Part shown: positions 5,636 through 24,446 of the stretch, one piece after another
Layout: every line of letters begins with the position of its first letter
Position numbering within the stretch: the stretch's first letter is position 1
Source of the DNA: a virus
Taxonomy: Duplodnaviria > Heunggongvirae > Uroviricota > Caudoviricetes
Direction: 5' to 3' (one strand)
DNA: 27,110 bases
Virus record (IMG/VR): IMGVR_UViG_2534681878_000029
The notes under the pieces: generated by a model
Told to the model about the DNA's origin: nothing
The model's database searches: none
The model's input: the letters and a program-made list of their open reading frames with translations, nothing else
Made by a program: the position numbers and the translations under genes

Positions 5636-5677
5636 TGAACCGCCCCGGGTTTCCTGGAGAGTGTTTTATCTGTGAAC

Positions 5678-6568
5678 TCAGGCTGCCAGATCATCGTTTC
5701 CGATGGAAGCATAATAAGCTTTTTCTGCTTCTGCCGGAGGGATATGACCCAGCCTTCCCAGCAATCGTCGATTGTTATACCAGTCCACCCACGTGAGTGT
5801 GGCCAGTTCCACTTCTGCACGGTTTTTCCAGCTCTTACGGTGTATTACCTCCGCTTTGTAAAGACCATTGATGCTCTCCGCCATCGCGTTGTCATACGAG
5901 TCACCTGTACTCCCTGTTGATGCCAGCAGTTTTGCTTCTTTTAGTCGCTCCGTATAGGCCAGTGATACATACTGAGAACCTTTATCACTGTGATGGACTG
6001 TGCCGGACGGCCGACGGGCCCACAACGCCTGCTCCAGTGCATCCAGCACGAATGTCGTTTCCATAGACGATGAGACTCGCCACCCCACGATGTATCCGGC
6101 AAACACATCAATGATAAACGCCACATAGACGAAGCCCTGCCATGTGCTGACGTAAGTAAAATCAGCCACCCACAGCTGGTCAGGTCGTTCTGCCACGAAC
6201 TGACGGTTTACGCGGTCGCCTGCGGCAACGGCTTTCCGGCTGATGGTCGTACGGACCTTTTTACCCCGGAGAACACCGGCAAGTCCCATAACCGCCATGA
6301 GACGTGCCACTGTACATCTGGCCACCCTGATTCCTTCCCGTAACAACTGACGCCAGACTTTACGCACACCGTACACCTGATGATTTTCATCGTATACGCG
6401 CTGTATCTCTCTCTTCAGCCAGTCGTCGTGCTGCGCACGGGCACTGCGTTTATCCGGATGATGTCGCTGTTGCTGACAATGGTAATACGTTGACGGGGCA
6501 ATATGCAGTTCGCTGCATACCGGTCCGACCCCGTACTGCTCACGCAGCTTATCCAGCAGTGGCATCAT
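5678..6568 (-). CDS. IS3-family transposase OrfB (copy 2)
   Basis: 296 aa, ~99% identical to the 1770-2660 product (e.g. I192V, G212K, T278I differences). Confidence 0.9.
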
Positions 6569-6891
6569 TTTTTCCAGAGGCGGTCGAACTCCGCCTTCGC
6601 AAAATAAGCGGAAGCCTGGCGAAGGATATCGTTACTGCGGCGCAGTTCACGATTTTCACGTTCCAGCTCTTTCAGACGCTGACGTTCAGCGCTGGTGAGC
6701 CCACCATCACCGCCCCCGGTATCCCGCTCATGCTGGCGAACCCAGACACGCAGAGTCTCCGGCGTACAGCCAATCTTTGGGGCAATGGAACAAATTGCCG
6801 CCCACTGTGAGTCATATTCATCCTGACTTTCCAGAACCATACGAATCGCCCGCTGACGGACTTCGGGGGAAAAACGAGTATTTTTAGTCAT
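6565..6891 (-). CDS. IS3-family transposase OrfA (copy 2)
   Basis: C-terminal 108 aa of the 316-aa track ORF are identical to OrfA of copy 1; the ATG is at 6889-6891 (reverse strand). The upstream 208 aa of the track ORF are antisense read-through and not called. Confidence 0.9.
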
Positions 6892-6944
6892 CCTGTTTAC
6901 CTCTTTCTCAGGGAGTTTAGTCTCCAGGATTTCCGGGCGGTTCA

Positions 6945-7977
6945 AGGACATGACGATATCGGTCTGGGTCTTTCCTGATACTGATATTTCAGATGTATCG
7001 CGTGAGTTAATTGCGGCAATTAAACAGGGGTATCTAACAGTAAAAGCCGCCGGGGTATGGGCGGGGGGCATTGAAACACCTTCGGTGGAAACTCCATCGG
7101 AAGGCTCTAAATTTTTTGGTTTTGATATGGATAACGAATTCATCAGTGGTTTTGATGTAGGGGCATGGGGAGTATTACTCTGATGGCGAAAAATGACTTT
7201 AAAGCGTTTGCAACTGATCGAAATGCCAATGTTATGTCGCAGGAGGAATGGGAAGCGTTGCCTGCGCTTATATCCGGATTTACAGCAGGGAAAGCATCCA
7301 GTGCGCAAGTCAATAAGGTTATTCGGCAGGCCAGCTTTATTGCTGCAGCTCTGGCCCAGTTTGTAAGTGATAAAACGCAACGGGATGTGCTTGATAATGG
7401 TGATCTGCCCGGTTTTGTTGAATTGCTGGGATCGGGGTTTGCTGTTGAATACCTGAGCCGCAAGAATCCGTTTGGCGATATCAAATCGGACGGCACGGTG
7501 AAAACGGCTCTTCAAAACCTTGGTTTGGGAGAAGGTGCTCCAGCTATTGGCGTTCCGTTCTTCTGGCCGTCCGCTGCAATGCCAAATACTGTAATCGACA
7601 GCTGGTCCTGTATGGTGTTTTTGAAGTTCAACGGCGCGAAATTCTCTGCCACTGATTATCCTGTGCTGGCGAAAGTGTTTCCTTCGCTGGTATTACCTGA
7701 AGCCCGCGGTGATTTCATTCGTATCTGGGATGACGGGCGAGGTGCAGACGGTGGTCGCGAATTATTAAGCTGGCAGGCAGCTACAAACTTTTCTCAGTTT
7801 GCCGGGAATATAGGCGAAGGTGCGGGACACGCAATTAACTTTCATGATGGCATCGCCGGAAATCAGCCAGGATTTTCACGATTTAATTTCACCAGTAACT
7901 CTGTGGGTGATGGTGTGAATTTTGTTGCAGTCAGACCGCGAAATATTGCATTTAACTTTCTGGTGAGGGCTAAATAA
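6945..7977 (+). pseudogene. stf: Side tail fibre gene 3' remnant (C-terminal receptor-binding segment), 5' end removed at the IS629 junction
   Basis: ORF 7165-7977 (270 aa) is immediately followed by a tail-fibre assembly gene. The preceding 220 bp are open in another frame (6950-7183). No N-terminal tail-fibre shaft is present because the IS629 end is at 6944. Confidence 0.65.
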
Positions 7978-8570
7978 TGAAACCTGTTTTTGATGAAAAT
8001 GGGCTGGCTACAGTGCCGGGCGATATGCGTTGTTTTTATTATGATGCTGAAACATCTGAGTATACGGGCTGGTCTGATGAATATATTAATACTGGCGTAA
8101 GTATGCCCGCCTGTTCCACTGGTATTGACCCTGGCGAAAACATTCCGGGAAGAGTGGCAGTATTTACAGGTAAGGGATGGAGCCATGAAGAAGACCATCG
8201 CAATGAGACTGTTTACTCAATCGAAAATGGCGCAGCTGTTACAGTGGATTATATCGGTGCCATCAAAGACGGTTATGTCACGATTTCACCGTTAACGCCA
8301 TACGATAAATGGGATGGTGAGAAATGGGTGACAGACACTGAGGCACAACACAGTGCCGCAGTAGACGCGGCAGAAGCACAGCGCCAATCACTGATTGATG
8401 CAGCAATGGCTTCCATTAGTCTGATTCAGCTGAAGTTACAGGCCGGACGGAAACTGACTCAGGCAGAAACAACCCGACTTAACGCCGTGCTGGATTACAT
8501 TGACGCGGTGACGGCAACAGATACCAGCACCGCGCCGGATGTCATCTGGCCTGAACTGCCGGAGGCGTAG
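7977..8570 (+). CDS. tfa: Tail fibre assembly protein (Tfa-like chaperone)
   Basis: 197 aa; start overlaps the stf stop (TAATG). Its C-terminal motif ...LDYIDAVTATDTSTAPDVIWPELPEA has a counterpart in the convergent paralogue at 8542-8994 (...LDYLDALELVDTSGAPDIEWPTPPAVQAR). Confidence 0.85.
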   Translation: MKPVFDENGLATVPGDMRCFYYDAETSEYTGWSDEYINTGVSMPACSTGIDPGENIPGRVAVFTGKGWSHEEDHRNETVYSIENGAAVTVDYIGAIKDGYVTISPLTPYDKWDGEKWVTDTEAQHSAAVDAAEAQRQSLIDAAMASISLIQLKLQAGRKLTQAETTRLNAVLDYIDAVTATDTSTAPDVIWPELPEA

Positions 8571-8994
8571 GCCATTCAATATCTGGCGCACCGGAAGTAT
8601 CGACCAGCTCCAGTGCGTCCAGATAATCCAGCCACAAATTATATTGCGTCAGTTCGTCACCTTTCAGACGACCAATAGCCGCTTTACCGGGCCATTGCTT
8701 ACTGTTCATGTATTCGTTGGCCTGGTTAATTAGTAGCTGTCTTTCTGATTCAGTAATTTCAATAAGCTCTTCATGCGTGGGTGGAGGAATATCTGCCCAC
8801 GCAGGCAGCCCATCATCTCCGGCAATACGGATTTTTCCTTGTGGCGGTTCAGCCATAAACTCACTGATAATATTTTGATTTACTTCCTTAGCGTCTGATA
8901 AATCCCATCCCTCTGATTTATATTTATCAATCATATCCACAGGGAAAAAAGCATTATGCCTTGCGCTATAAACATATTCGTCCATATAAATCAC
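8542..8994 (-). CDS. Alternative tail fibre assembly protein (inverted-orientation paralogue)
   Basis: 150 aa, convergent with tfa and overlapping its 3' end; shares the C-terminal Tfa motif. This arrangement is typical of Pin/Gin/Cin invertible host-range cassettes. Confidence 0.8.
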   Translation of the reverse strand: MIYMDEYVYSARHNAFFPVDMIDKYKSEGWDLSDAKEVNQNIISEFMAEPPQGKIRIAGDDGLPAWADIPPPTHEELIEITESERQLLINQANEYMNSKQWPGKAAIGRLKGDELTQYNLWLDYLDALELVDTSGAPDIEWPTPPAVQAR

Positions 8995-9005
8995 CCTGAA
9001 TAAAA

Positions 9006-9419
9006 TTACTCACCAACAGCCCACCAACTGTAATTCATCGATACCGTGTCGCTGGTTGATGACGTTCTGTAAGCAGAATTAAAGCCGGTTAACGTTGGGC
9101 CTTCTGCAGTCATCACGAACCCTCGCCCAGCGCCTAAAGGCGCACCGCCATCACCAGAATGAGTAAGCATGGCGCAGTCCGCTTTTTTGGGGAAAGGGAT
9201 GCTGAATGTAATTCTCATTGTTTGCGTCGATAATGTCGGCGTAACCGCACCACGACCATATTGCAGGATTTTCCCGTTGGGTAATTTCATCCATCCATTA
9301 CCACTGGCAAAAGAGGCCATGTCCGGTATCTGATTTTCCCCTGTCCCCACATCCCGTTTTGCCGCTTCTCCCAAACCAACGTTTATGAAAATGCAGAAAT
9401 AACGAGCAAATGGCATCAT
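9006..9419 (-). CDS. Alternative tail fibre C-terminal cassette (silent orientation, no independent promoter expected)
   Basis: 137 aa ORF ending just upstream of the alternative tfa; Gly/Ser/Thr-rich like fibre tips; its 5' end overlaps the candidate crossover site at 9364-9389. Confidence 0.55.
   Translation of the reverse strand: MMPFARYFCIFINVGLGEAAKRDVGTGENQIPDMASFASGNGWMKLPNGKILQYGRGAVTPTLSTQTMRITFSIPFPKKADCAMLTHSGDGGAPLGAGRGFVMTAEGPTLTGFNSAYRTSSTSDTVSMNYSWWAVGE
9364..9389. promoter_or_regulatory. Candidate invertase crossover site (gix/pix-like 26-bp site)
   Basis: TTCTCCCAAACCAACGTTTATGAAAA fits the dyad pattern TTnnCnnAAACC-nn-GGTTTnnGnnAA known for Gin/Hin/Pin sites and lies just upstream of pin. 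I could not unambiguously locate the partner site. Confidence 0.45.
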
Positions 9420-9445
9420 TCCTGCTTTTGTCAGGGAGATCTACC

Positions 9446-10000
9446 ATGCTTATTGGCTATGTACGTGTGTCAACAAATGACCAGAACACAGATCTACAAC
9501 GTAATGCGCTGAACTGTGCAGGATGCGAGCTGATTTTTGAAGACAAGATAAGCGGTACAAAGTCCGAAAGGCCGGGACTGAAAAAACTGCTCAGGACATT
9601 ATCGGCAGGTGACACTCTGGTTGTCTGGAAACTGGATCGGCTGGGGCGCAGTATGCGGCATCTGGTCATTCTGGTTGAGGAGTTGCGCGAACGTGGCGTT
9701 AATTTTCGCAGCCTGACGGATGCTATTGATACCAGTACCCCAATGGGGCGCTTTTTCTTTCATGTGATGGGGGCCCTGGCTGAAATGGAACGAGAACTGA
9801 TTGTTGAACGAACAAAAGCTGGACTGGAAGCTGCTCGCGCACAGGGACGAATTGGTGGACGTCGTCCCAAACTTACACCAGAACAATGGGCGCAGGCCGG
9901 ACGATTAATTGCAGCAGGAATTCCTCGCCAGAAGGTAGCGATCATCTATGATGTTGGTGTATCGACACTGTATAAGAAGTTTCCGGCCGGAGATAAATGA
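9446..10000 (+). CDS. pin: Serine DNA invertase of the Pin/Gin/Hin family
   Basis: 184 aa from the ATG at 9446 (SD AGGGAG at 9434-9439): MLIGYVRVSTNDQNTDLQRNAL...VVWKLDRLGRSM...GRIGGRRPKL...; resolvase N-domain with catalytic Ser and C-terminal HTH. Confidence 0.9.
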   Translation: MLIGYVRVSTNDQNTDLQRNALNCAGCELIFEDKISGTKSERPGLKKLLRTLSAGDTLVVWKLDRLGRSMRHLVILVEELRERGVNFRSLTDAIDTSTPMGRFFFHVMGALAEMERELIVERTKAGLEAARAQGRIGGRRPKLTPEQWAQAGRLIAAGIPRQKVAIIYDVGVSTLYKKFPAGDK

Positions 10001-13360: not shown

Positions 13361-14542
13361 ATGCCTTTAAACGATATGCAGATTCGCCGCGCTAAGCCTG
13401 AAGCTAAAGCCTATACATTTGGAGATGGGCTAGGGTTGTCATTACTTATAGAACCTAATGGAAGCAAGAGTTGGCGGTTCCGCTATCGCTATGCCGGCAA
13501 ACCCAAAATGATCTCGCTTGGTGTTTACCCAACGATCACCCTTGCCGATGCTCGTTCCCGTCGTGATGAAGCTCGAAAACTTGTGGCAGAAGGAAAGAAC
13601 CCTAGTGAGGTTCGAAAAGAGCAAAAGCTAGCTATGCAAACAGAGTCAGAGAACGCCTTCGAAAAGATAGCCAGAGAGTGGCATCAACTTAAATCTGCTA
13701 AATGGTCGGCGGGATATGCATCAGACATCATGGAAGCGTTTAAGAACGACATTTTTCCTTATGTCGGAACAAGGCCTGTGGGAGAGATTAAACCGCTAGA
13801 GCTGCTGAACGTTCTGCGTAAAATTGAGAAACGTGGTGCGTTGGAGAAAATGCGCAAAGTGCGGCAGCGTTGCTCCGAAGTGTTTCGCTACGCAATTGCA
13901 ACGGGTAGGGCGGAGTACAATCCTGCGGCTGATCTCTCCAGCGCTCTCGAAGTACACCAATCCAATCATTTCCCATTCCTAAAAGCTGATGAGATACCTG
14001 ATTTTCTACGTGCCTTAGAGGGTTACTCCGGGAGTAAGCTTGTCCAGATAGCCACGAAATTACTGATGATTACGGGTGTGAGAACCATCGAATTACGCGC
14101 GGCATTATGGCAAGAATTTGATCTGGATAACGCTATTTGGGAAATTCCTGCTGAAAGGATGAAAATGCGTAGGCCACATCTTGTGCCCTTATCATCTCAA
14201 GCGGTAGATTTACTCAATGAACTCAAGATCATGACAGGGAACTATCGTTATGTTTTTCCAGGGCGGAACGATCCGAATAGGCCAATGAGCGAAGCGAGTA
14301 TAAATCAAGCCATTAAGCGTATTGGGTATGGAGGAAAAGTCACTGGACATGGTTTTCGTCATACCCTTTCTACAATCCTGCATGAGCAAGGTTTTGAGAG
14401 TGCTTGGATTGAAATCCAGTTGGCTCATGTAGATAAAAATTCTATTAGGGGGACTTATAACCATGCTCAATATTTTAGTGGAAGGAAGTCTATGATGGAC
14501 TGGTACAGTAATTTGATATTTGAAAGACTAAAAAGGAGTTAA
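13361..14542 (+). CDS. int: P4-type tyrosine integrase (IntA/IntS-like, DUF4102 N-domain)
   Basis: MPLNDMQIRRAKPEAKAYTFGDGLGLSLLIEPNGSKSWRFRYRYAGKPK... with the C-terminal R...HGFRHT...Y catalytic signature; directly downstream of the tRNA-Thr fragment. Start moved to the ATG at 13361 because the track extension overlaps an inverted repeat. Confidence 0.9.
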   Translation: MPLNDMQIRRAKPEAKAYTFGDGLGLSLLIEPNGSKSWRFRYRYAGKPKMISLGVYPTITLADARSRRDEARKLVAEGKNPSEVRKEQKLAMQTESENAFEKIAREWHQLKSAKWSAGYASDIMEAFKNDIFPYVGTRPVGEIKPLELLNVLRKIEKRGALEKMRKVRQRCSEVFRYAIATGRAEYNPAADLSSALEVHQSNHFPFLKADEIPDFLRALEGYSGSKLVQIATKLLMITGVRTIELRAALWQEFDLDNAIWEIPAERMKMRRPHLVPLSSQAVDLLNELKIMTGNYRYVFPGRNDPNRPMSEASINQAIKRIGYGGKVTGHGFRHTLSTILHEQGFESAWIEIQLAHVDKNSIRGTYNHAQYFSGRKSMMDWYSNLIFERLKRS

Positions 14543-14545
14543 TTT

Positions 14546-14962
14546 GTGTCTCAACCACTTTCGGAAATATTGACATGGGATGATGAACAATGGGAGGTAT
14601 TTGTCCATGATTGGCTTATTGTCTGTAAATCAGATGATTACCCGTGGAGCGAACGTTTGGGAGGAGCTGGAGATAAAGGTAGAGACGTTGTTGGATATAA
14701 ATCGGATCCTAACGTAGAAGGTTATTCTTGGGATAATTATCAATGCAAACTGTACAAAAAAAGTTTAGGGTTCTCTGATGTTGTAGTTGAGTTTGGAAAA
14801 CTTATCTATTTTACTCTGAATGGTGATTATCCCATCCCTCAGAAGTACTTTTTTGTGGCACCCTATGATTTATCTACTACATTTTCTAATTTATTGAAAA
14901 ATAAAAACGAGCTTAAAAAAGCAGTCCTTGATTCATGGGATTCAGCAATTTCAAAAAAATAA
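14546..14962 (+). CDS. Mrr-like PD-(D/E)xK nuclease-domain protein (candidate effector, N-terminal part)
   Basis: GTG start 4 nt after the int stop with SD AAGGAG at 14533-14538. Motif GGAGDKGRDVVGY ... YQCKLYKK (residues 39-72) matches the Mrr_cat pattern g-DgG-D ... QcK. AT-rich. Confidence 0.6.
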   Translation: MSQPLSEILTWDDEQWEVFVHDWLIVCKSDDYPWSERLGGAGDKGRDVVGYKSDPNVEGYSWDNYQCKLYKKSLGFSDVVVEFGKLIYFTLNGDYPIPQKYFFVAPYDLSTTFSNLLKNKNELKKAVLDSWDSAISKK

Positions 14963-15552
14963 CTAAAAAGATTGATATTCCATTAGATGATGAAATAAAA
15001 AAATATATTGAGGATTTTGATTTTAGTATTTTTTACTCTCTACCCTTATCATTGATTTTAAATGATATTGCAAATACACACCTTTATTTTAAGTACTTTA
15101 ACGAGCTGTATGTCGTGAGAATCCCTCCAAATGAAATTCCAACATACAATTCAAAAAAAGAGTCTGTATATGTTAATGCACTGCTTCAAGCCTATTCAGA
15201 GCATGGAAATAAAACTTATAGTTCTTTCTTAGAGCTTGATGATCCATACAGACGACACTTTAATAATAGTAGAAATGATTTTTATTTTGCATCTTCGCTT
15301 GAGGTTTTTGTCCGCGAAGTATTTAAAGATGATGTATTCAAAGCATTGAAATGTTACATTTCATCTTCAATTGAACCCGTCTTTTATGAAGACCATAATT
15401 ATGCATTTATTAGGTGTAATGCAGTCTTGAAGCAGGCTGTTCTGACACCAATTGCACATTCAGTACTATCAAAAATATGTGAAGCAAATGATAAAAAAGG
15501 AATATGCCATCATTTGGTTAATGATGGTGAAGTAATTTGGACGGTGAGATAA
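14935..15552 (+). CDS. Hypothetical protein; possibly the C-terminal continuation of the preceding ORF via -1 frameshift at an A7 run
   Basis: 205 aa ORF overlapping the previous one by 28 nt in the -1 frame; the overlap contains AAAAAAA (14953-14959) followed by the 0-frame stop; no recognisable motif. Confidence 0.5.
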   Translation: MGFSNFKKITKKIDIPLDDEIKKYIEDFDFSIFYSLPLSLILNDIANTHLYFKYFNELYVVRIPPNEIPTYNSKKESVYVNALLQAYSEHGNKTYSSFLELDDPYRRHFNNSRNDFYFASSLEVFVREVFKDDVFKALKCYISSSIEPVFYEDHNYAFIRCNAVLKQAVLTPIAHSVLSKICEANDKKGICHHLVNDGEVIWTVR

Positions 15553-16010
15553 TGGTTAGAATTTATAATTCAAGTTTAGAAGTGGCATGTCGAATGGCGA
15601 AAGTGCTCGTCGCTATTTATCCTTCTTCATTAAGCCTTGAACGGCTTATTTGTTTTGATTTTATTTTAGTAAATCTTAAGGATTTTTTACCTGAAGAGAT
15701 TAGTCTTCATCCTCCAATACCCCGTAGAGATGCTCAGTTAGCCCTAAAACGAGAGATTGTTTTAGAATCATTGGCTTTGTTGCAAGGCTATGAACTAGCC
15801 TCAAAAATTTATACACATCGTGGTTTTGTATATAAAGCTTCTGAAAAAACATATGCATTTACAAATTCTCTACATAATGAATATGTTGCGCAGATGGAGC
15901 ATAATATAAATTTGGTGGTTAAGTTATATAGTGATATTCCTGATGAGCAGTTGCAATCAATTATAAAAAATAAAATTGGCAAATATGATATGGAATTTAA
16001 TTATGAATGA
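15552..16010 (+). CDS. Hypothetical small protein (middle component)
   Basis: 152 aa from the ATG at 15552, overlapping the upstream stop as TAATG (translational coupling); no recognisable motif. Confidence 0.5.
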   Translation: MVRIYNSSLEVACRMAKVLVAIYPSSLSLERLICFDFILVNLKDFLPEEISLHPPIPRRDAQLALKREIVLESLALLQGYELASKIYTHRGFVYKASEKTYAFTNSLHNEYVAQMEHNINLVVKLYSDIPDEQLQSIIKNKIGKYDMEFNYE

Positions 16011-16635
16011 CAATTTTTTTACGTTCAGAAAAATAAAGGTAACCGGATTCAATAAATTAGATGCTATAATTGAATTTGGTTCTAAATTGACTATTTTATA
16101 TGGTGGTTCTGACTCTGGAAAAACATACATATATTATTTGATTCGATATTTATTAGGGAGTGAAAAACTAAAAAATAAAGATATCGATCATGCTCAAGGT
16201 TATGATTTAGCCTATCTGGAATTTAATTTTCAAGGTAGGGTAATGACAATTGAGAGGTCTCTTCAGGATAGCGCCCATTACAGATTATATGATTCGAGCA
16301 TTGAAAATGTTAGTGAAGCTAATCTGTTGATGGTTTTTTCCAAAAGTGCTTCGTCTAAAAAGAGTTTTTCATCATACTTTTATGGTAGGTTGAATTTCAA
16401 AGAGGCTAAAGTAAGAACAAACTTAAGTAATACTCTTCATAAATTTAATCTTAATAATGTTTTTGAATTTTTTTGTATTGATGAATTAAGAGTGTTAACT
16501 GAGAAGTCGTTAATTCTTTCTGATATTCCTAGCGAGGAGACAAAAAGAAAGTCTGAATTTAAATTCCTTTTAACTCAGAGAGATGATACTAACTCCTTAG
16601 CAGAAAAACCAAATAAAAAAGCAAGATATTTTTAA
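15985..16635 (+). CDS. ABC/SMC-like ATPase, N-terminal head with Walker A
   Basis: FRKIKVTGFNKLDAIIEFGSKLTILYGGSDSGKT: the SMC/RecF/RecN-type N-terminal strand followed by P-loop GGSDSGKT (nt 16102-16125). Start uncertain (ATG 15985 or 16003). Confidence 0.6.
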   Translation: MIWNLIMNDNFFTFRKIKVTGFNKLDAIIEFGSKLTILYGGSDSGKTYIYYLIRYLLGSEKLKNKDIDHAQGYDLAYLEFNFQGRVMTIERSLQDSAHYRLYDSSIENVSEANLLMVFSKSASSKKSFSSYFYGRLNFKEAKVRTNLSNTLHKFNLNNVFEFFCIDELRVLTEKSLILSDIPSEETKRKSEFKFLLTQRDDTNSLAEKPNKKARYF

Positions 16636-16665
16636 AAAAATCAAATTGCAAATATTTATGAGGAA

Positions 16666-17256
16666 TTGAAAGCGCAATTAATTTATCCTGAATATGATCA
16701 AGTCATTGTTTCAAGAGAACTTGAGAAAGTAGAGCAAGATATTGAATCATCGAAAGATATATTGAAAGGTATTGTTGATGCACTTGATGATAAGAAGCAA
16801 TTATTAAAAGAGTTAAGTGATGAATTATATTCAATCAGTGACAGGGAAAAATACTTATCATTACTCATTGAAAGATTTAGTCTTCTTAAAGACCAATACT
16901 TTATAGATCTACAAAGAATAGATGTTGTATCACAGGCGAATTTCTATTTAAATAATTTTGCAGATATTTATTGTGAGTTCTGTAATACACCGCAAAAAAA
17001 AGAAAATGAAATATCATATGATGATTGTTTTTTGTCGTGTAATGCAGAAAAATTGAAAATCAAAAGCCAGCTGAAAGGATTAATTGAATCAATCGGATCT
17101 AATGTTCGCGAACATGAATTAATTATGTTAAGAAAAAATGATGTTAATGAAATTTATCAATCAGAAAAAAGTGATTTTAAGACGTTAGAAGATAAAAATA
17201 TAAAACAATACATTCATCTCTTGAATCACTTTATGAATATAAAGACAATCTTTTAA
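16666..17256 (+). CDS. Coiled-coil segment, same frame as the preceding ORF and separated from it only by a single TAA
   Basis: 196 aa rich in heptad-like K/E/L/I repeats; the track start is TTG with no convincing SD; in frame with 15985-16635 across the TAA at 16633-16635. Confidence 0.5.
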   Translation: MKAQLIYPEYDQVIVSRELEKVEQDIESSKDILKGIVDALDDKKQLLKELSDELYSISDREKYLSLLIERFSLLKDQYFIDLQRIDVVSQANFYLNNFADIYCEFCNTPQKKENEISYDDCFLSCNAEKLKIKSQLKGLIESIGSNVREHELIMLRKNDVNEIYQSEKSDFKTLEDKNIKQYIHLLNHFMNIKTIF

Positions 17257-17822
17257 TGGATCACACAAAACATAGCATTCTATCTTCATTACAAGATAAA
17301 GAAGATGATGTTGACGAACTTAAATACTCCGCCGAGGACTTTGACTCCTTAACAGTAGCTGATTTGTATGATATAGAAATAGCGATGCAAGACTTTTTGA
17401 ATGATATAAATTTTGAAAATTCTAAAGATAACAAAGTGCGATTTGACGAAGATACATATGACTTTAATATCAATGGGAAACGCCGAGGAATGTTTGGTAA
17501 AGGTACCCGTGCAGTAATGCATGCTATATTTACCATTTGCTTTGCGGAATTTTTATCAAGAAAAGGGAATCCATTCATTGGATTTGTTGTGCTTGATAGT
17601 CCATTAGTGACGCACTTTGATAAAGATAGAGGGGGTTCTCTATCGGATGTTAATAGCGTCAGTCTCAGTGATTCATTTTATCACGCATTAATCAAAAGGG
17701 ACTATAATTTCCAGATTGTAATTCTTGAGAATAAAGGTCCGACGTTCCAAATAAAAATTAATGATGCAAATAAAATCCATAACTTAAATAAGAATGGAAG
17801 CTCTGGTTTTTATCCTGTTTAA
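17256..17822 (+). CDS. ABC/SMC-like ATPase, C-terminal head with signature-like and Walker B motifs
   Basis: ...RRGMFGKGTRAVMHAIFTICFAEF (signature-like region) followed ~20 aa later by IGFVVLDSP (Walker B-like hhhhD); ATG overlaps the upstream stop as TAATG. Confidence 0.55.
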   Translation: MDHTKHSILSSLQDKEDDVDELKYSAEDFDSLTVADLYDIEIAMQDFLNDINFENSKDNKVRFDEDTYDFNINGKRRGMFGKGTRAVMHAIFTICFAEFLSRKGNPFIGFVVLDSPLVTHFDKDRGGSLSDVNSVSLSDSFYHALIKRDYNFQIVILENKGPTFQIKINDANKIHNLNKNGSSGFYPV

Positions 17823-18231: not shown

Positions 18232-18504
18232 TCAGACAGGAATTTGCTGACGGCTTGACAGCTTTGACGCGGAGCCATAGCGATTGAGAGTTTGCTGTTG
18301 TTTTTCCGGCATTTGTGCTTTCTCTGATTCCTGTTCATTGCGCCGGGGCTTCATGATTATCGTATCCACACTTTCCAGTGCGGTAAATGTGTAGGAACAT
18401 TCAAGATTCTGGCACTGATACCATGAGCGTTTAACCGATGGTGCTTCATAGGCGGAGGTTCTGGCGTGTGCCGTCGTACCGCATTCGGGACATTTAAGTG
18501 CCAT
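18232..18504 (-). CDS. Ogr/Delta-family zinc-finger late-gene transcriptional activator
   Basis: MALKCPECGTTAHARTSAYEAPSVKRSWYQCQNLECSYTFTALESV: the CxxC...AHARTS...QCxNxxC...TF pattern of P2 Ogr / P4 Delta. Confidence 0.85.
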   Translation of the reverse strand: MALKCPECGTTAHARTSAYEAPSVKRSWYQCQNLECSYTFTALESVDTIIMKPRRNEQESEKAQMPEKQQQTLNRYGSASKLSSRQQIPV

Positions 18505-18509
18505 TAATA

Positions 18510-19061
18510 TTACTCCTGCATGCCGTTAATGTAATCCAGACGTTGCTGAAAGCGCAGTTGTTGTGCAGGGGTGTAAGAGCTCTGGCAATCACGAACCATC
18601 ATGGGGTCAGGCATCACACCGGATTCATCCAGAATCATACGATAATCCCCGGCAATTTCAGGCGGTGTTATTGCCAGCTGGCGAACCAGAGCATTGCGTA
18701 ATATACGGGACGCAACGTCAACCCCTCCGCGCCCCTTCAGGAACGGAGCCAGTGCAGATGTCAGGGCTGCTCCATTCGCCTGCATAAAATTGCTGAGAGC
18801 GTCTTCTGTGCAGGCCTCCATCAGTTGATGCTGCGAGTAAATGCATTCGCGCGCAGCACAGTTAATTTGCCATTTCAGCACATCCAGATGTTCCCGCTGT
18901 AATTCGAGCTGTCGAGCATAATCTGCTGGTTTTTCCATGGCAGTGAGGAGTGATTCTATCTGTTGTTCAACGGCTTTTCGGCTCTCACTATGTCCAGCCC
19001 ACAGAATACGGGCATTTCTAAAACTGATAAGCGCTTGGTCTGGAGTGACTCGGGCCATCAT
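18510..19061 (-). CDS. psu: Psu-like protein (P4 polarity suppression / capsid decoration family)
   Basis: 183 aa; shares recalled P4 Psu motifs (KWQ[IV]N, HG[AT]ALA[AS]ALAP, TPAQ); co-oriented with the sid-like gene as in P4. Confidence 0.7.
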   Translation of the reverse strand: MMARVTPDQALISFRNARILWAGHSESRKAVEQQIESLLTAMEKPADYARQLELQREHLDVLKWQINCAARECIYSQHQLMEACTEDALSNFMQANGAALTSALAPFLKGRGGVDVASRILRNALVRQLAITPPEIAGDYRMILDESGVMPDPMMVRDCQSSYTPAQQLRFQQRLDYINGMQE

Positions 19062-19810
19062 ACTGCTTTCTCCTTCTCAGCACGTTCCTGACGAACCTTC
19101 ATTTTATGCATAGCTGCTGGAGAGAGTTTATTACTGAAATCCAGACGGGCCGCATAATCCGGGGCAACTCCCGCCAGTTTAAACACGGGGTCCTGTTCGG
19201 GCATCGCATCGTTAGTCAGAGCCGGTCTGGTGATATGTTTATGAATAAAATCTTTCAGCAGTGTGTCCGGGTCATTAACTGAATGCACCACACCGACAAC
19301 TGCGCTGGCTTCCCTGCCCATTGTTGATTTGAGCAGGCTTAGTGTCTGGATTAGTGCTTTTCCATGCGACTGCATAAAATCTTCCCAGATTTGTTTTGCG
19401 CGAATACCCACAAGGGTGTCGTGCGCGTGGATATACTTTCCGGCTAATTCCGCAGCCTCCTGCGGCAAAAGTGCATTTTCGCTTTCCTGAGCCGCCAGCA
19501 GCTCATCAAAATCCTCAAGCGTTTCTCGTCCCAGCGCAATTTCCGTGCGCAGTTTTTTCATTTCCTTTGAGACTACGCCCTGACTTTCACGAAATAGCGT
19601 GCGCCACTCCTCATTCAGGGCGTTCGTCGTGGCTTCCATTTCAGCGCGGCGCTGGCGGATTGTCGCAATATTATCCGCTGCCGCTTTTTGCTGACGACGT
19701 GCTTCAAGCCATGCAGATTTGGTGGCATTCACTTTCTCAAGCGCCTGTTGCGTCGAAACAGGGATAGAAATTTCAACGATCGGGTTATTGTTCTGTTCTG
19801 GGATTGTCAT
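19058..19810 (-). CDS. sid: Sid-like external scaffold protein (P4 capsid size determination family)
   Basis: 250 aa, Ala/Glu/Gln-rich helical protein upstream of psu in the same operon, divergent from the alpA/primase operon; resembles what I recall of P4 Sid (e.g. EEWRTLFRESQGVVS). Confidence 0.7.
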   Translation of the reverse strand: MTIPEQNNNPIVEISIPVSTQQALEKVNATKSAWLEARRQQKAAADNIATIRQRRAEMEATTNALNEEWRTLFRESQGVVSKEMKKLRTEIALGRETLEDFDELLAAQESENALLPQEAAELAGKYIHAHDTLVGIRAKQIWEDFMQSHGKALIQTLSLLKSTMGREASAVVGVVHSVNDPDTLLKDFIHKHITRPALTNDAMPEQDPVFKLAGVAPDYAARLDFSNKLSPAAMHKMKVRQERAEKEKAV

Positions 19811-19975
19811 GTCAGCACCTAGTGGTTTGTCGTGGTGTCAATTGTGCTGTGATGCATACAAAGCTGCCATTGAACGCCATTGTGCGAGCGACAAGACAAA
19901 GACTGAACCGCCCCGGACCTCTTTTGGCTAGCCAGAAAAGGCCTCGTTTAACTAAGGCTGTTTCAGACTTACCTT

Positions 19976-20196
19976 AACTATTCACTACTATTCACTTAGG
20001 TAAAAAAAATAGGTAATACAGAAGGTTATAAGGTGAAGGGTTGGCATGGCAGTATTCATCGACTGTTCATAACTGTTCACATGGGAATAAAATTATTTAT
20101 GGTATTTTTTCATAATGGGTGGTTTTTTTATTCCTCGTAGCTATTTGTTTTTTGCTCCTCACCACTATTCACCCTTATTCAGGAGTATTCAACAGG
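19976..20196. repeat. Cluster of ~9 degenerate octamer repeats T(A/G)TTCA(C/T): putative primase-binding iterons (P4 crr/ori-like)
   Basis: AACTATTCACTACTATTCAC (19977-19995), TATTCATCGACTGTTCATAACTGTTCACATGG (20053-20084), CACTATTCACCCTTATTCAGGAGTATTCAAC (20163-20193). P4 ori/crr use TGTTCACC-type octamers. Confidence 0.5.
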
Positions 20197-20743
20197 CACA
20201 TAAATAGACTGCATGTTTTTGCCGGGGAATAACATTTTCGCCTCTGGCCATGGTGTTGCATTTCATACTGATTTTTATAAAACTAGATCTGTCCGGTTCT
20301 TTATGGATTCATTCGGATATATTTTACGATTTAAGGTGATGTTATTTAATATCAAGGTTTTTATGCAGGCCCAATGTTTATAAGTTGGATGCGATTCAAA
20401 AATATGCCCGGAAATTGGGGCCTGCAATGCAAGGCCTCGTGTAGAAGTTGTACTGCCTTGCTGTATTGGCGGTGGGGTTAGCACTATCAGGTGCAATGAC
20501 CCATAGGATAGTAAACCCTGGGTGAATGGTAGTTCCTATTAATGCTCCTGTATTTATAGTCCGCAGGCATGGTATTTATTATGTCATTTTATATGGTTTA
20601 ATCGGGCTTTAAATTCCATAAAATCAATATGTGACGCTAAATAAAAAATGCGTGCGCAGGTGGTTTATATACACATAATAAGGAACTACCTGAACCCGGA
20701 TAAATTCATCCGGACTGTTGTGGAAATTAAAGAGGGTAGATAA

Positions 20744-21004
20744 ATGCGTAATATTTCTGTGTCTGCGCCAGCTCCTGCTGCGCCATTATTTCCTGTATCG
20801 AACCATCATGAGCGATTTTTACGCCTGCCTGAGGTGATGCACTTATGCGGGTTGTCCCGTTCGACCGTTTACGACCTGATCAGCCGCGATGCGTTTCCGA
20901 AGCAGATCCCGCTTGGCGGTAAAAATGTCGCCTGGGCACAGTCTGAGGTCAGCGCATGGATGGCGGACCGCATCAGCGCCCGTGGGCGGGGATGTGATGC
21001 ATGA
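20744..21004 (+). CDS. AlpA-family DNA-binding regulator (prophage excisionase/regulatory HTH)
   Basis: 86 aa; [52 protein letters not shown] is the AlpA/MerR-like HTH signature found in P4-like and CP4-57-like elements. Confidence 0.8.
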
Positions 21005-21554
21005 TGATACCTGCATACATTAAATACCTTTATTCTGGCTTGCTTACTGTCGTCATTTCCAGGTATAGTTTTTCCGCTGTCGCAAAATCGGCAGCCGGAA
21101 TTGGCGTTCCGTATAACTTATTGGCGACAATTGACGCCCCTTGCGTCTTTTTTTACGTCGTAGCTCAGGCACAACCATTTTCAGGGCTGTGGTGTTTATG
21201 CTTACACCATGGTTCTATCGAGATAATGGTAGTCCGGGCGGGGCAGCCTTCGGGCTGGCCGGTTTCCAATAAGGCCGGTTACGCCAACCCCGTTCGGGCT
21301 GCCACCAGTGAAATTGGCGTTTCCGGTGGTAGCAATAACCGCTACTTATTGGAGGCTGCCATCATGGCTACAATCCTCACCCCGTCACACCCGCAATATG
21401 TCTTTGTGTTTGCCGCAATCCGCCGTGCTGACACTCACCCCCGCATCTGTATGCTTCGCACTGTCTCCTGCGATGAGCGTTCCGCGCGCCGTTTGCTAGT
21501 CCGAGATTATGTACTCTCCCTTTCTGCACGGCTGCCTGCCGGGGAGGTGACGCT

Positions 21555-21776
21555 ATGAACCAGTTTGAGATTTCCTACGACGATGTTGTAAGGCTGAAAC
21601 ATTTACGCAATGTGGGTGAGTATGTAACTGGCATGGCAGTCCTGCAGGACTGTTATGAAAAGCCAGCAGGTGCCCAATGCGAACAACTGGTTTCCCTCAT
21701 TTATCTGATGACAGAGCAACTGGATGGAGTGGTGCAACGCTGCCATGACGACCTGATGAATGCGGAGGTGGCCTGA
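21555..21776 (+). CDS. Hypothetical small protein of the P4-like early operon
   Basis: 73 aa, ATGA start/stop overlaps with both neighbouring ORFs, co-oriented with the primase; no motif recognised. Confidence 0.45.
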
Positions 21777-22099
21777 TGATATGCTGTGAATCTCTTCTGG
21801 CACTTCGTGCCGCTCTGTATCGCCGTGCCGTTGCCTGTGCCTGGCTGGCTCTAAGCAATCATCAGGAACGTTATTCCGGCCTGACGCTCGCTGAACTTGA
21901 AGATGCCATAGCCCGCGAGCTGGAAGGGTTCTATCTGCGCCAGCATGGGCAGCAAAGAGGGCTGGAAATTGCCTGCGCGTTGCTTTCGGATCTGATGGAG
22001 TCGGGGCCGCTTAAAGCCTGTCCGGTTCTCTCACTGCTCGGAATGACGGTCATGGATGAACTTTGTTCCCGTCACCTCAACAAACCAGCGCTGCACTAA
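21776..22099 (+). CDS. Hypothetical small protein of the P4-like early operon
   Basis: 107 aa, coupled to the upstream ORF (TGATGA overlap) and ends 13 nt before the primase ATG. Confidence 0.45.
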
Positions 22100-22112
22100 G
22101 GAGGGCCGCACA

Positions 22113-24446
22113 ATGTCAGGAATGAAAGTTAGCCAGGCTGAGAAAGCAGCTCGGGGTCACTGGTCAAGAATTTTACCTGCGCTGGGCGTAAATGTACTGA
22201 AAAATCGGCACCAGCCCTGCCCGGTCTGTGCCGGGAAAGACCGCTTTCGATTTGATGACCAGGAAGGGCGGGGAACGTGGTTCTGTAACCAGTGCGGGGC
22301 AGGTGATGGCCTGGCGCTTGTAAGTAAAGTACTGGATGTAGGCATTAGTGAAGCGGCAGACAGAATAAACGGCATTATCGGAAACCTGCTGCCAGTATCT
22401 CAGGGAATGCTTGAATCTGGTTCTCCTGAAAAAGAGGACGGGAGAAAAGCTGCAGCAGTGCTGGCTGCCCGTTTGTTTGATAAGTCCCGCCAGACCACTG
22501 GCAATGCCTATCTGACGAGTAAAGGGTTTCCTGCACTGCCTTGCCGGGAATTAACCGCTATGCATAAAGTCGGTGGTGTGGCATTTCGCGCGGGAGATCT
22601 TGTCGTTCCATTGTATGCAGATGGAGAGCTGGTAAATCTGCAGTTAATCAACGCTAATGGGGGCAAATGCTTCCTTAAAGGCGGTCAGGTTAAGAATGCC
22701 TTTTACCTGGTTGAAGGTACTGCCAAAGCAGCCAAACGGCTCTGGATAGCGGAAGGATATGCCACCGCACTTACTATCAACTATCTGACTGGCGATGCTG
22801 TCATGGTGGCCTTTTCGTCCGTCAATTTCCTTTCCCTGGCGAGCATTGCCTGCAGTGAGTACCCAACGCACCAGATAATTATTGCTGCTGACCGCGATCT
22901 CAACGGTGCGGGGCAAACAAGGGGCGCAGCTGTTACCGGGGCCTGCAATTGCACAATGGCGCTCCCGCCTGTGTTTGGTGACTGGAACGATGCATTCACG
23001 CAAAACGGCGAAGAAGCCACCCGGCATGCAATTCATGAAGTAATAAAACCAGCTGTTGCCAGCCCCTTCGACACAATGAGCGAAGCTGAATTTACCGCGC
23101 TGAGCGTCAGCGAAAAAGCGCAGAGGGTAGTGGATCACTATAAAAATTCACTGGCAGTAGACCCGAACGGGCAGCTCCTTTCATGCTATGAGGCGGGGGC
23201 CTGGAAAGTTATCTATTACGCCGATTTTGCCCGTGATGTCGCTGCGCTGTTTCAGCGCCTCGACGCACCTTTTTCATCCGCGAAAATTGCGTCTCTCGTG
23301 GAAACCCTCAAACTGATCGTTCCGCAACAGCAGAATCCGGCGCGGCAACTTATCGGATTTCGCAACGGTGTGCTCGATACCCGGACAGGATTGTTCAGCC
23401 CGCACGATAAGAAGCACTGGTTACGTACGCTGTGCGAGGTGGATTACACGCAGCCCGTTGACGGTGAGTCACTGGAAACCCATGCCCCGGCATTCTGGCG
23501 CTGGCTGGATCGTGCCGCAGGTTTTAATCCTGAAAAACGGGACATTATTCTGGCTGCATTGTTTATGGTGCTGGCTAACCGTTATGACTGGCAGCTGTTT
23601 CTGGAGGTCACTGGCCCTGGCGGAAGTGGAAAGAGTATTCTTGCTGAAATAGCAACCATGCTGGCGGGTGAAGATAACGCGACCTCGGCAACCATTGAAA
23701 TGCTTGAGTCGCCAAGAGAACGAGCTGCGTTAATAGGTTTTTCACTGATTCGACTTCCCGACCAGGAAAAGTGGAGCGGTGACGGGGCCGGACTAAAAGC
23801 CATCACTGGCGGCGATGCGGTATCCGTTGATCCCAAATATCAGAACGCCTATTCAACCCACATCCCGGCGGTCATCCTGGCTGTGAACAATAATCCGATG
23901 CGCTTCACTGATCGTAGTGGTGGAGTTTCACGCCGAAGGGTGATCCTGCATTTCCCCGACCAGATAGCCCCGGAGGAACGCGATACCCAGCTCAAAGAGA
24001 AAATTGCCAGTGAGCTAGCGGTGATTGTTCGCCAGCTTATGCAGCGTTTCAGCGACCCAATGAGTGCCAGGACATTGCTTCAGTCACAGCAGAACTCCGA
24101 TGAAGCGCTCACCATCAAACGTGATGCTGATTCAGCTTTTGATTTTTGCGGCTACCTTGAGGTCCTACCTGACACCACGGGCATGTTTATGGGGAACGCT
24201 AATATTGTTCCACGTCAGCCTCGAACTTACCTCTACCATGCCTATCTGGTCTACATGGAGGCTAACGGCTATAAAAATACGCTCAGTCTGACCATGTTTG
24301 GCAAGGGGCTACCGTTAATGCTCAAGGAATATGGGCTGCAGTATGAGAAACGACGGACCAATCAAGGAATGCAGACTAATCTGGCCCTAAGAGAGGAAAG
24401 CAATGCTGACTGGTTGCCAAAATGCGATGAGTTTGCAGCGAAATAA
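22113..24446 (+). CDS. P4 alpha-like primase/helicase (zinc-binding domain, TOPRIM primase, D5-like SF3 helicase)
   Basis: 777 aa from the ATG at 22113 (SD AAGGAGG at 22099-22105). N-terminal CPVCAGKDRFRFDD...WFCNQCG zinc ribbon; Walker A GPGGSGKS in the C-terminal helicase; same length as P4 alpha. Confidence 0.9.
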   Translation: MSGMKVSQAEKAARGHWSRILPALGVNVLKNRHQPCPVCAGKDRFRFDDQEGRGTWFCNQCGAGDGLALVSKVLDVGISEAADRINGIIGNLLPVSQGMLESGSPEKEDGRKAAAVLAARLFDKSRQTTGNAYLTSKGFPALPCRELTAMHKVGGVAFRAGDLVVPLYADGELVNLQLINANGGKCFLKGGQVKNAFYLVEGTAKAAKRLWIAEGYATALTINYLTGDAVMVAFSSVNFLSLASIACSEYPTHQIIIAADRDLNGAGQTRGAAVTGACNCTMALPPVFGDWNDAFTQNGEEATRHAIHEVIKPAVASPFDTMSEAEFTALSVSEKAQRVVDHYKNSLAVDPNGQLLSCYEAGAWKVIYYADFARDVAALFQRLDAPFSSAKIASLVETLKLIVPQQQNPARQLIGFRNGVLDTRTGLFSPHDKKHWLRTLCEVDYTQPVDGESLETHAPAFWRWLDRAAGFNPEKRDIILAALFMVLANRYDWQLFLEVTGPGGSGKSILAEIATMLAGEDNATSATIEMLESPRERAALIGFSLIRLPDQEKWSGDGAGLKAITGGDAVSVDPKYQNAYSTHIPAVILAVNNNPMRFTDRSGGVSRRRVILHFPDQIAPEERDTQLKEKIASELAVIVRQLMQRFSDPMSARTLLQSQQNSDEALTIKRDADSAFDFCGYLEVLPDTTGMFMGNANIVPRQPRTYLYHAYLVYMEANGYKNTLSLTMFGKGLPLMLKEYGLQYEKRRTNQGMQTNLALREESNADWLPKCDEFAAK

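What the first reader, a model, noticed from the sequence alone, without database searches (positions are those of the whole stretch)
16630..16668. Single in-frame TAA separating the Walker A head from the coiled-coil segment of the ATPase
ORF 15985-16635 and ORF 16666-17256 are in the same reading frame, separated by one TAA (16633-16635) and ten sense codons. The downstream ORF has no ATG, and its only candidate start is a TTG with GAGGA just 1 nt upstream. This looks like a nonsense mutation (or stop-codon readthrough site) inside one gene, suggesting the ATPase may be inactivated in this strain.
Basis: seen in the sequence. Interest (0 to 1): 0.55.

Follow-up and report, generated by a model that had tools for sequence, protein, structure and literature searches.

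The report
Nonsense mutation in a dead Lamassu ATPase
The TAA is a real single-base nonsense mutation (Leu211 to stop) inside the ATPase gene of a Lamassu anti-phage system in an E. coli O157:H7 P4-like satellite, but two older frameshifts had already broken the system, so this is ordinary pseudogene decay.

Summary
ORFs ending at 16635 and starting at 16666 share a reading frame and are separated by one TAA (16633-16635) plus ten sense codons.

The window is E. coli O157:H7 (Sakai prophage Sp2, a P4-like satellite). The cassette 14546-17822 is a short Lamassu (ABC-3C) defence system, LmuA-LmuC-LmuB.

Intact orthologous cassettes in Proteus and Pantoea-like genomes encode one 606-aa LmuB. The codon aligned to the TAA is TTA or CTG (Leu) there, and Leu in all ten full-length homologues aligned. 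The "TTG start" at 16666 is TTA in those orthologues, so it is an internal Leu codon and not a start.

In E. coli, TTA survives in at least 11 genomes: O55:H7 strains, LSU61 and 493/89. About 297 typical O157:H7 genomes carry TAA, so the stop is derived.

The TAA was not what killed the system. All 12 E. coli cassettes examined, counting the window, share a 1-base loss in lmuB after 17193 and a 1-base loss in lmuA after 14952. Both lie at A-runs and predate the TAA. Other sublineages carry their own extra lesions.

RefSeq Sakai already annotates 16003-17822 as a pseudogene (ECs_0293). Interest is low.

The parts
13361..14542 (+). P4-type tyrosine integrase of satellite Sp2 (context; left border of the defence hotspot)
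   Evidence: Annotated intS/integrase in Sakai and EDL933. The orthologous Pantoea-like loci have a 393-aa integrase in the same position.
14546..14962 (+). lmuA fragment 1: N-terminal effector domain (Mrr/PD-(D/E)xK-like; GDKGRD 14669-14686, YQCK 14738-14749), ending at a TAA created by the frameshift
   Evidence: PADLOC LmuA PDLC03852 positions 10-140, E = 9e-41. Mrr_cat is weak here (E = 0.2) but found in 6/35 homologues. Invariant D43, D47, Q66-C67-K68.
14953..14959 (+). A7 run: site of the ancestral 1-base loss that frameshifts lmuA
   Evidence: The DNA alignment with four intact cassettes shows one gap column after 14952, in both the window and O55:H7. It is present in all 12 E. coli cassettes examined, counting the window. 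Adding one A restores a 335-aa LmuA that matches 325-380-aa homologues at 97-100% coverage.
14961..15552 (+). lmuA fragment 2: linker plus CTD6 domain (mechanical ORF call 14935-15552)
   Evidence: Pfam PF20282 CTD6, E = 7.7e-30. PADLOC LmuA positions 141-333, E = 3.9e-44.
15552..16010 (+). lmuC (ABC-3C middle component 2), apparently intact in this window
   Evidence: Pfam PF20288 MC2, E = 6e-30. PADLOC LmuC E = 2.5e-36. Same 152-aa length as in the intact cassettes.
16003..16635 (+). lmuB fragment 1: N-terminal ATPase head half with Walker A GGSDSGKT (16102-16125)
   Evidence: PADLOC LmuB PDLC03863 positions 3-199, E = 1.3e-49. Pfam AAA_23 E = 1.9e-7. Motif coordinates.
16633..16635 (+). TAA nonsense codon, Leu211 to stop, caused by T>A at 16634 (T6A6 became T5A7)
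   Evidence: TTA in O55:H7, 493/89, LSU61 and Proteus; CTG in Pantoea-like cassettes. Leu in 10/10 full-length homologues. Allele counts.
16636..17193 (+). lmuB fragment 2 (true coding part): coiled coil with CxxC zinc-hook motif CEFC (16972-16983). The mechanical ORF call 16666-17256 starts at an internal Leu codon, and its last ~20 codons are out-of-frame sequence.
   Evidence: PADLOC LmuB positions 231-412, E = 1.6e-21. C324 and C327 are invariant. The TTG at 16666 aligns to TTA in intact orthologues.
17194..17198 (+). A5 run: site of the ancestral 1-base loss that frameshifts lmuB (Proteus has A6 here)
   Evidence: One gap column after 17193 in the window and O55:H7 against four intact cassettes. 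Shared by all E. coli cassettes examined.
17196..17822 (+). lmuB fragment 3: end of the coiled coil plus the C-terminal head half, with GKGTRA (17496-17513) and Walker B FVVLDS (17583-17600). The mechanical ORF call 17256-17822 starts at internal Met420.
   Evidence: PADLOC LmuB positions 428-608, E = 5.1e-37. Homology extends 20 codons upstream of the ATG in this frame. Motif coordinates.
18232..19810 (-). P4-like core genes ogr/delta, psu and sid (context; right border of the defence hotspot)
   Evidence: Annotations. Same order, with Pfam Ogr_Delta and Psu, in the orthologous Pantoea-like satellites.

Best explanation
The TAA at 16633-16635 is a fixed single-base nonsense substitution (TTA Leu211 to TAA) in lmuB. 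LmuB is the SMC/Rad50-like ATPase of a short, Mrr-type Lamassu (ABC-3C) anti-phage system carried in the defence hotspot of the P4-like satellite Sp2 of E. coli O157:H7.

In its intact form the cassette encodes:
- LmuA (335 aa): an Mrr-like nuclease domain plus CTD6.
- LmuC (152 aa).
- LmuB (606 aa): Walker A head, coiled coil with a CxxC hook, and a Walker B head.

By analogy with solved Lamassu complexes, LmuB2-LmuC holds LmuA inactive until LmuB senses phage DNA ends. LmuA then oligomerises and degrades DNA. This mechanism is inferred from the family and was not shown for this cassette.

In the whole O55:H7/O157:H7 lineage the cassette is a pseudogene array. One-base losses at A-runs in lmuA (after 14952) and lmuB (after 17193) were already present in the common ancestor. 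The TAA arose later, on the branch to typical non-sorbitol-fermenting O157:H7. It is therefore a secondary, most likely neutral, lesion in a gene that was already dead. The TTG at 16666, the GAGGA before it and the ATG at 17256 are ordinary internal codons (Leu, Glu-Glu, Met420) that ORF callers and PGAP pick up as starts.
For: **Identity of the cassette**
- PADLOC LmuA, LmuC and LmuB hits. The three ATPase ORFs tile one LmuB profile.
- Pfam CTD6, MC2 and AAA_23.
- Walker A, CxxC and Walker B fall one in each fragment and match the short-Lamassu motifs described in PMC12663957.

**Intact orthologues**
- 606-aa LmuB at 88% (Proteus) and 76% (Pantoea) identity with 100% coverage, plus more than 20 others of 594-612 aa.
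- Loci with integrase-LmuA(335)-LmuC(152)-LmuB(606)-ogr-psu-sid.
- The 3.28-kb DNA alignment has only three gap columns, and TAA aligns to TTA/CTG.

**Polarity of the change**
- T at 16634 in Proteus, all O55:H7 examined, LSU61 and 493/89. A only in typical O157:H7.
- This fits the published order O55:H7, then LSU-61, then the SF and NSF O157 branches (PMC3309690).
- 493/89 still has a fused 417-aa head + coiled-coil ORF.

**Order of events**
- Both frameshifts are shared by all 12 E. coli cassettes examined, counting the window.

**Relaxed constraint**
- 7 of 8 substitutions between the window and O55:H7 RM12579 are non-synonymous.
- Independent extra lesions: A5 and A7 variants of the A6 run at 17165, an lmuC nonsense at 15812 in DEC5A and FDAARGOS_946, +T at 16467 and Q214* in CB9615, and an IS1203 insertion in three strains.

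**Existing annotation**
- RefSeq Sakai annotates 16003-17822 as pseudogene ECs_0293.
Against: - No expression or activity data are available, so residual function of the fragments cannot be formally excluded.
- lmuC is still intact in this window.
- The lmuA frameshift site (TC A_AAA_AAA TAA) is formally a -1 slippery heptamer, so some full-length LmuA could be made.
- Neutrality of the TAA is inferred from the order of lesions and was not measured.
- The Mrr assignment of the effector rests on weak or partial profile hits.
- The Lamassu mechanism is transferred from distant, structurally characterised systems. No PDB chain matched by sequence beyond weak SMC/Rad50 head hits.
- Only 12 of about 308 E. 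coli cassettes were compared base by base, counting the window.
Confidence: 0.94

Rival explanations
1. Genuine multi-gene organisation: the Walker A head, the coiled coil and the Walker B head are separate functional polypeptides that assemble in trans.
For: PGAP annotates the three ORFs as separate CDSs in most O157:H7 genomes. ORF2's stop overlaps ORF3's ATG (TAATG), which resembles translational coupling.
Against: - All full-length homologues are single proteins of 594-612 aa.
- The TAA is a Leu codon in orthologues, and the TTG is TTA there.
- GAGGA lies 1 nt from the TTG. From general knowledge, this is too close for a Shine-Dalgarno sequence.
- Homology continues through the ten codons upstream of the TTG and 20 codons upstream of the ATG at 17256, in another frame.
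- The split pattern differs between sublineages.
Confidence: 0.02
2. Programmed recoding: stop-codon readthrough at the TAA, and/or ribosomal or transcriptional slippage at the A-runs, yields functional full-length LmuB and LmuA at low level.
For: The TAA sits in a T5A7 tract. The lmuA break is a formal A_AAA_AAA heptamer followed by a stop, and a -1 slip there would recreate the ancestral SKKITKK sequence. The A-runs in the cassette are length-variable among strains.
Against: - The stop and both frameshifts are derived states absent from intact orthologues, so there is no conserved recoding signal.
- Full-length LmuB would need two independent recoding events, UAA readthrough plus a -1 shift at T_AAA_AAT, which is not a canonical heptamer.
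- From general knowledge, UAA is read by both release factors in E. coli and is the least leaky stop.
- The two ancestral frameshifts are in the same broken state in all 12 cassettes compared base by base. This argues against reversible phase variation.
Confidence: 0.02
3. The TAA was the primary inactivating event, possibly selected to remove a toxic abortive-infection ATPase, in O157:H7.
For: The TAA is fixed in nearly all typical O157:H7 genomes. Lamassu systems are toxic when over-expressed (PMC12663957).
Against: The lmuB frameshift after 17193 and the lmuA frameshift after 14952 are present in genomes that still have TTA: O55:H7, LSU61 and 493/89. The gene was therefore already broken. 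Fixation is explained by clonal descent of the NSF O157:H7 lineage.
Confidence: 0.02
4. Sequencing or assembly artefact in a homopolymer-rich, AT-rich stretch.
For: The TAA lies at a T/A homopolymer junction. Some strain-specific single-base A-run deletions in other assemblies may be errors.
Against: The change is a substitution, not an indel. It is identical in about 297 independently sequenced complete genomes, and its distribution follows the phylogeny.
Confidence: 0.005

Closest known systems
Short Lamassu / ABC-three-component (ABC-3C) systems with an Mrr-type LmuA (Doron 2018; Millman 2022; Krishnan 2020; structures of V. cholerae DdmABC/Lamassu Vc-Cap4, Haudiquet et al. 2025, PMC12663957)
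   Same: - Three-gene operon of LmuA (effector + CTD6), LmuC (MC2) and LmuB.
- LmuB of about 600 aa in intact orthologues.
- Walker A Gx4GKT with K40, Walker B hhhhDS, and one CxxC hook in the coiled coil.
- Overlapping gene boundaries.
- Location in a mobile defence hotspot.
   Different: - Here lmuA and lmuB are pseudogenes: two frameshifts plus one nonsense codon.
- The effector is Mrr/PD-(D/E)xK-like, not Cap4.
- There is no detectable sequence similarity to the solved Lamassu chains.
- No activity was tested.
Defence hotspot of P4-like satellites between integrase and psu/delta (Rousset et al. 2022, from my own knowledge; PMC13586616)
   Same: Same architecture: int, defence cargo, ogr/delta, psu, sid, then alpA and primase. 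Orthologous Pantoea-like satellites carry the intact version of the same cargo next to proA.
   Different: PMC13586616 reports that recognisable defence pseudogenes are rare in P4-like satellites (<1% of pseudogenes) and that cargo is usually swapped before decay. Here the cargo has been decaying in place since before the O55:H7/O157:H7 split, while the satellite core genes have the same lengths as in the intact relatives.
RefSeq annotation ECs_0293 (Sakai): 'AAA family ATPase', pseudogene
   Same: Covers exactly 16003-17822 and already treats the three ORFs as one disrupted gene.
   Different: The annotation does not name the system (Lamassu LmuB), does not flag lmuA (ECs_0290/0291) as split, and gives no polarity or order for the lesions. 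Most other O157:H7 records annotate three separate CDSs.

Membership tests
Short Lamassu (LmuABC / ABC-3C) | LmuB: SMC/Rad50-like ATPase with Walker A Gx4GK[S/T] | tested here: met
   GGSDSGKT at 16102-16125. PADLOC LmuB E = 1.3e-49. Motif definition from PMC12663957.
Short Lamassu (LmuABC / ABC-3C) | LmuB Walker B of the short type, hhhhD[Q/S/T/E] | tested here: met
   FVVLDS at 17583-17600, in the third fragment. D532-S533 are invariant in homologues.
Short Lamassu (LmuABC / ABC-3C) | LmuB of about 600 aa with a central coiled coil (0-2 CxxC hooks), encoded as one polypeptide | tested here: not met
   Orthologues are 606 aa with invariant C324-x-x-C327. In the window the reading frame is broken by the TAA at 16633 and by a 1-base loss after 17193. 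This is a degraded member, not an intact one.
Short Lamassu (LmuABC / ABC-3C) | LmuC (middle component) encoded between or next to LmuA and LmuB | tested here: met
   15552-16010. Pfam MC2 E = 6e-30. PADLOC LmuC E = 2.5e-36.
Short Lamassu (LmuABC / ABC-3C) | LmuA: N-terminal effector domain fused to a conserved C-terminal domain | tested here: inconclusive
   CTD6 E = 7.7e-30 and PADLOC LmuA hits for both halves. However, the gene is frameshifted at 14953-14959. The effector class (Mrr) is supported only by Mrr_cat hits in 6/35 homologues and by invariant D...D...QxK residues.
Short Lamassu (LmuABC / ABC-3C) | Anti-phage or anti-plasmid activity dependent on the LmuB Walker A lysine | not testable with these tools
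   Needs plaque assays with the native and repaired cassettes.
Programmed stop-codon readthrough / recoding site | Stop codon conserved across orthologues, with coding potential conserved downstream | tested here: not met
   The stop is absent from Proteus, Pantoea-like, O55:H7, LSU61 and 493/89 cassettes.
Genuine split gene (two-gene organisation) | Conserved stop of the upstream part and conserved start codon and RBS for the downstream part | tested here: not met
   TAA aligns to TTA/CTG, TTG at 16666 aligns to TTA, and GAGGA aligns to GAGGAG or GAAGGT coding for Glu-Glu / Glu-Gly.
P4-like satellite defence hotspot | Cargo located between the P4-type integrase and the delta/psu/sid module, with alpA and primase further on | tested here: met
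   Annotations of Sakai Sp2 'P4-like phage'. Orthologous loci carry Pfam Phage_integrase, Ogr_Delta, Psu, Phage_AlpA and primase domains.

The most novel reading that the evidence does not exclude
Inactivation of this Lamassu system in the common ancestor of O55:H7 and O157:H7 was not neutral. This family senses replicating phage or plasmid DNA ends and eliminates plasmids in V. cholerae. Its loss may have been permissive, or selected, for the later accumulation of lambdoid and Stx prophages and of pO157 in this lineage. The persisting fragments (intact LmuC, LmuA restorable by a -1 slip at A_AAA_AAA) might retain some modulatory activity.
Probability: 0.07. Interest if true: 0.5.

Novelty: already known. 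Interest (0 to 1): 0.17.

Why it matters
The value here is mainly annotation hygiene. In most O157:H7 genomes, five [quoted passage not shown] CDSs are fragments of just two genes, lmuA and lmuB. Defence-system censuses should score O157:H7 as lacking a functional Lamassu at this site.

Two modest points go beyond that:
- The cassette gives a dated series of lesions along the well-studied O55:H7 to O157:H7 lineage. Two ancestral A-run frameshifts come first, followed by lineage-specific nonsense and slippage events.
- It is a clear example of a defence cargo decaying in place inside an otherwise full-length P4-like satellite. A recent survey (PMC13586616) reports such cases as rare.

Tried and rejected
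- An 81-nt query carrying the TTA allele found nothing in E. coli genomes, probably because of low-complexity masking. I replaced it with a 271-nt query.
- Sequence searches of the PDB with intact LmuB and LmuA, as single sequences and as profiles, did not reach any Lamassu structure. Only weak SMC/Rad50 head matches appeared (E = 0.014-0.035). I did not pursue structure prediction or fold search because the question was settled by orthologue alignment.
- A literature search for an explicit description of a Lamassu pseudogene in O157:H7 found nothing specific.
- No tRNA lies in the window. thrW is just upstream of the window start in Sakai.
- I considered whether LSU61's +1 in the A-run at 17164 compensates the -1 after 17193. 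It does not, because the shifted frame hits TGA immediately.
- I considered phase variation at the A-runs and rejected it for the two ancestral sites, which are in the same broken state in all 12 cassettes compared base by base.
- I did not verify every one of the ~308 genomes base by base. Allele counts rest on BLAST identity ranking.

Full report
**1. The observation.**
- A +1-frame ORF ends at a TAA at 16633-16635.
- Ten sense codons follow (KNQIANIYEE).
- A TTG lies at 16666, preceded by GAGGA at a spacing of 1 nt.
- The same frame stays open to 17256.

A third ORF (17256-17822, another frame) overlaps the stop of the second. The gene upstream of the cassette is also in two overlapping pieces (14546-14962 and 14935-15552).

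**2. What the genes are.** PADLOC profiles identify a Lamassu system.
- LmuA (336-position profile) is covered by the two upstream ORFs, at positions 10-140 and 141-333.
- LmuC is 15552-16010.
- One LmuB profile (610 positions) is tiled by the three ATPase ORFs: positions 3-199, 231-412 and 428-608, with E = 1e-49, 2e-21 and 5e-37.

Pfam agrees, with CTD6 and MC2 of the ABC-three-component systems and AAA_23. The motifs that Haudiquet et al. 2025 (PMC12663957) give for short Lamassu LmuB fall one per fragment:

| Motif | Sequence | Window coordinates | Fragment |
|---|---|---|---|
| Walker A | GGSDSGKT | 16102-16125 | 1 |
| CxxC hook | CEFC | 16972-16983 | 2 |
| Walker B (hhhhDS) | FVVLDS | 17583-17600 | 3 |

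LmuA homologues carry CTD6 in 35/35 cases and Mrr_cat in 6/35, with invariant D43, D47 and Q66-x-K68. The ancestral effector was therefore most likely an Mrr/PD-(D/E)xK-type nuclease.

**3. Where the window comes from.** The cassette is 100% identical to E. coli O157:H7 Sakai and EDL933. It occurs at ≥99% identity in 309 records (308 of 5,426 complete E. coli genomes), all of the O157:H7/O55:H7 clade as far as listed. In Sakai it lies in "prophage Sp2, P4-like phage", between the integrase and ogr/delta-psu-sid. RefSeq Sakai already annotates 16003-17822 as one pseudogene, "AAA family ATPase" (ECs_0293). Most other records list three CDSs.

**4. Intact orthologues.** A repaired conceptual LmuB retrieves full-length single proteins: Proteus mirabilis (606 aa, 88% identity, 100% coverage), Pantoea alhagi (606 aa, 76%), and more than 20 others of 594-612 aa at about 45%.

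In the protein alignment the residue at the stop position is Leu in all ten homologues. K212 and Q214, encoded between the TAA and the TTG, are invariant.

The encoding loci show intact LmuA (335 aa) - LmuC (152 aa) - LmuB (606 aa). In the Pantoea-like loci these sit in the same P4-like satellite layout next to proA.

A DNA alignment of the whole 3.28-kb cassette with four intact cassettes (89% and 79% identity) contains only three gap columns:
- The window and O55:H7 lack one base after 14952, in lmuA at an A-run.
- The window and O55:H7 lack one base after 17193, in lmuB, where the window has A5 and Proteus has A6.
- O55:H7 lacks one more base at 17165.

The TAA aligns to TTA (Proteus) or CTG (Pantoea-like). 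The TTG at 16666 aligns to TTA, which is not a start codon. All four intact cassettes read as clean 335/152/606-aa genes.

**5. Polarity and timing.** At 16634, O55:H7 RM12579 has T. A 271-nt query carrying TTA is matched at 100.0% by exactly ten records: seven labelled O55:H7 (RM12579, USDA5905, DEC5A/B/D/E, TB182A), FDAARGOS_946 (no serotype in the record), and O157 strains 493/89 and LSU61. The rest are ≤99.6%. O55:H7 CB9615 is an eleventh TTA genome with further changes. With the window's own allele, 56 of 60 evenly spaced rows are 100% identical.

[quoted passage not shown] That 493/89 is the SF prototype is from my own knowledge. On this tree, T>A at 16634 arose on the branch to typical NSF O157:H7.

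Both frameshifts are present in every one of the 12 E. coli cassettes compared base by base, counting the window and including all the TTA-bearing ones. By parsimony they predate the O55/O157 split, and therefore the TAA. Strain 493/89 shows the immediate pre-TAA state: a fused 417-aa head + coiled-coil ORF that still terminates at 17256 because of the frameshift.

**6. Ongoing decay.** The cassette carries independent lesions in different sublineages.
- The A6 run at 17165-17170 is A5 in all O55:H7 examined and A7 in LSU61, where it creates a TGA.
- DEC5A and FDAARGOS_946 have TAT>TAA in lmuC at 15812.
- CB9615 has +T at 16467 and CAA>TAA at Q214.
- Three strains have an IS1203 insertion.
- Some strains have further single-base A-run losses at 14997, 16542 and 16994, some of which may be assembly errors.
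- Seven of the eight substitutions separating the window from O55:H7 RM12579 are non-synonymous, as expected without purifying selection.

**7. Mechanistic reading.** For intact short Lamassu, the solved V. cholerae complex is LmuA1B2C1. It binds dsDNA ends and releases LmuA to tetramerise and cut DNA, and the Walker A K40A mutant loses defence (PMC12663957).

Applied here by inference, the longest LmuB product in O157:H7 is a 210-aa half-head with Walker A. It lacks the coiled coil, the hook and the Walker B half, so it cannot form an ABC-type ATPase head. LmuA is cut between its nuclease domain and the CTD6 domain. In the solved short Lamassu complex, the LmuA C-terminal domain makes the core contacts with LmuB and LmuC. 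The system should therefore be non-functional.

The TAA added nothing to an inactivation that already existed. Readthrough is implausible, and even if it occurred it would be futile because of the downstream frameshift.

**8. Verdict.** The readthrough and two-gene alternatives are rejected. The feature is an ordinary, already annotated pseudogene in a known kind of defence system.

The only mildly unusual aspect is that a recognisable defence cargo has decayed in place in a P4-like satellite whose core genes keep full length. PMC13586616 reports such cases as rare.

Noticed in passing
window 14953-14962: The lmuA frameshift site reads TC-A_AAA_AAA-TAA, a formal -1 slippery heptamer immediately followed by the 0-frame stop. 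A -1 slip would recreate exactly the ancestral SKKITKK sequence, so some full-length LmuA might still be made.
   Followed up: no
window 17165-17170: This A6 tract has three length states in the clade: A5 in all O55:H7 examined, A6 in 493/89 and typical O157:H7 (and in Proteus), and A7 in LSU61. Almost all indels in the cassette are at A/T homopolymers, so slippage is the main route of decay in this AT-rich cargo.
   Followed up: yes
window 15812 (lmuC); 16467 and 16642 (lmuB): Independent lesions occur in other lineages. TAT>TAA in lmuC in O55:H7 DEC5A and in FDAARGOS_946. +T in a T-run at 16467 and CAA>TAA (Q214*) at 16642 in O55:H7 CB9615, only three codons from the O157:H7 stop.
   Followed up: yes
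window 1393-2702 and 5636-6944: Two 1310-bp IS copies, 98.2% identical to each other and in inverted orientation, each with a 296-aa ORF, sit in the lambda-like Sp1 remnant. Both are absent from these positions in Sakai. The rest of the window (6945-27110) differs from Sakai by 3 mismatches.
   Followed up: partly
window 13361-14542 and 18232-24446: The P4-like core genes of Sp2 (integrase 393 aa, delta 90, psu 183, sid 250, alpA 86, primase 777) have essentially the same lengths as in the Pantoea-like satellites that carry the intact Lamassu. The satellite core looks intact while its defence cargo is degraded, the opposite of the pattern emphasised in PMC13586616.
   Followed up: partly
L008/L009 (Proteus mirabilis) 6543-9821: The closest intact cassette (89% DNA identity) is not in a P4-like satellite. 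It sits in a different island with a DUF927 protein, an rve-family transposase and an integrase next to smpB, so the same Lamassu cargo has moved between unrelated mobile elements. In L008 the gene caller reports LmuA as only 145 aa, against 335 aa in L009. I did not examine this.
   Followed up: no
window 17285: A second substitution (C>T, synonymous in the lmuB fragment-3 frame) has the same distribution as the TAA among the 12 E. coli cassettes compared: T only in typical O157:H7. Two changes in this 3.3-kb cassette therefore mark that branch.
   Followed up: partly
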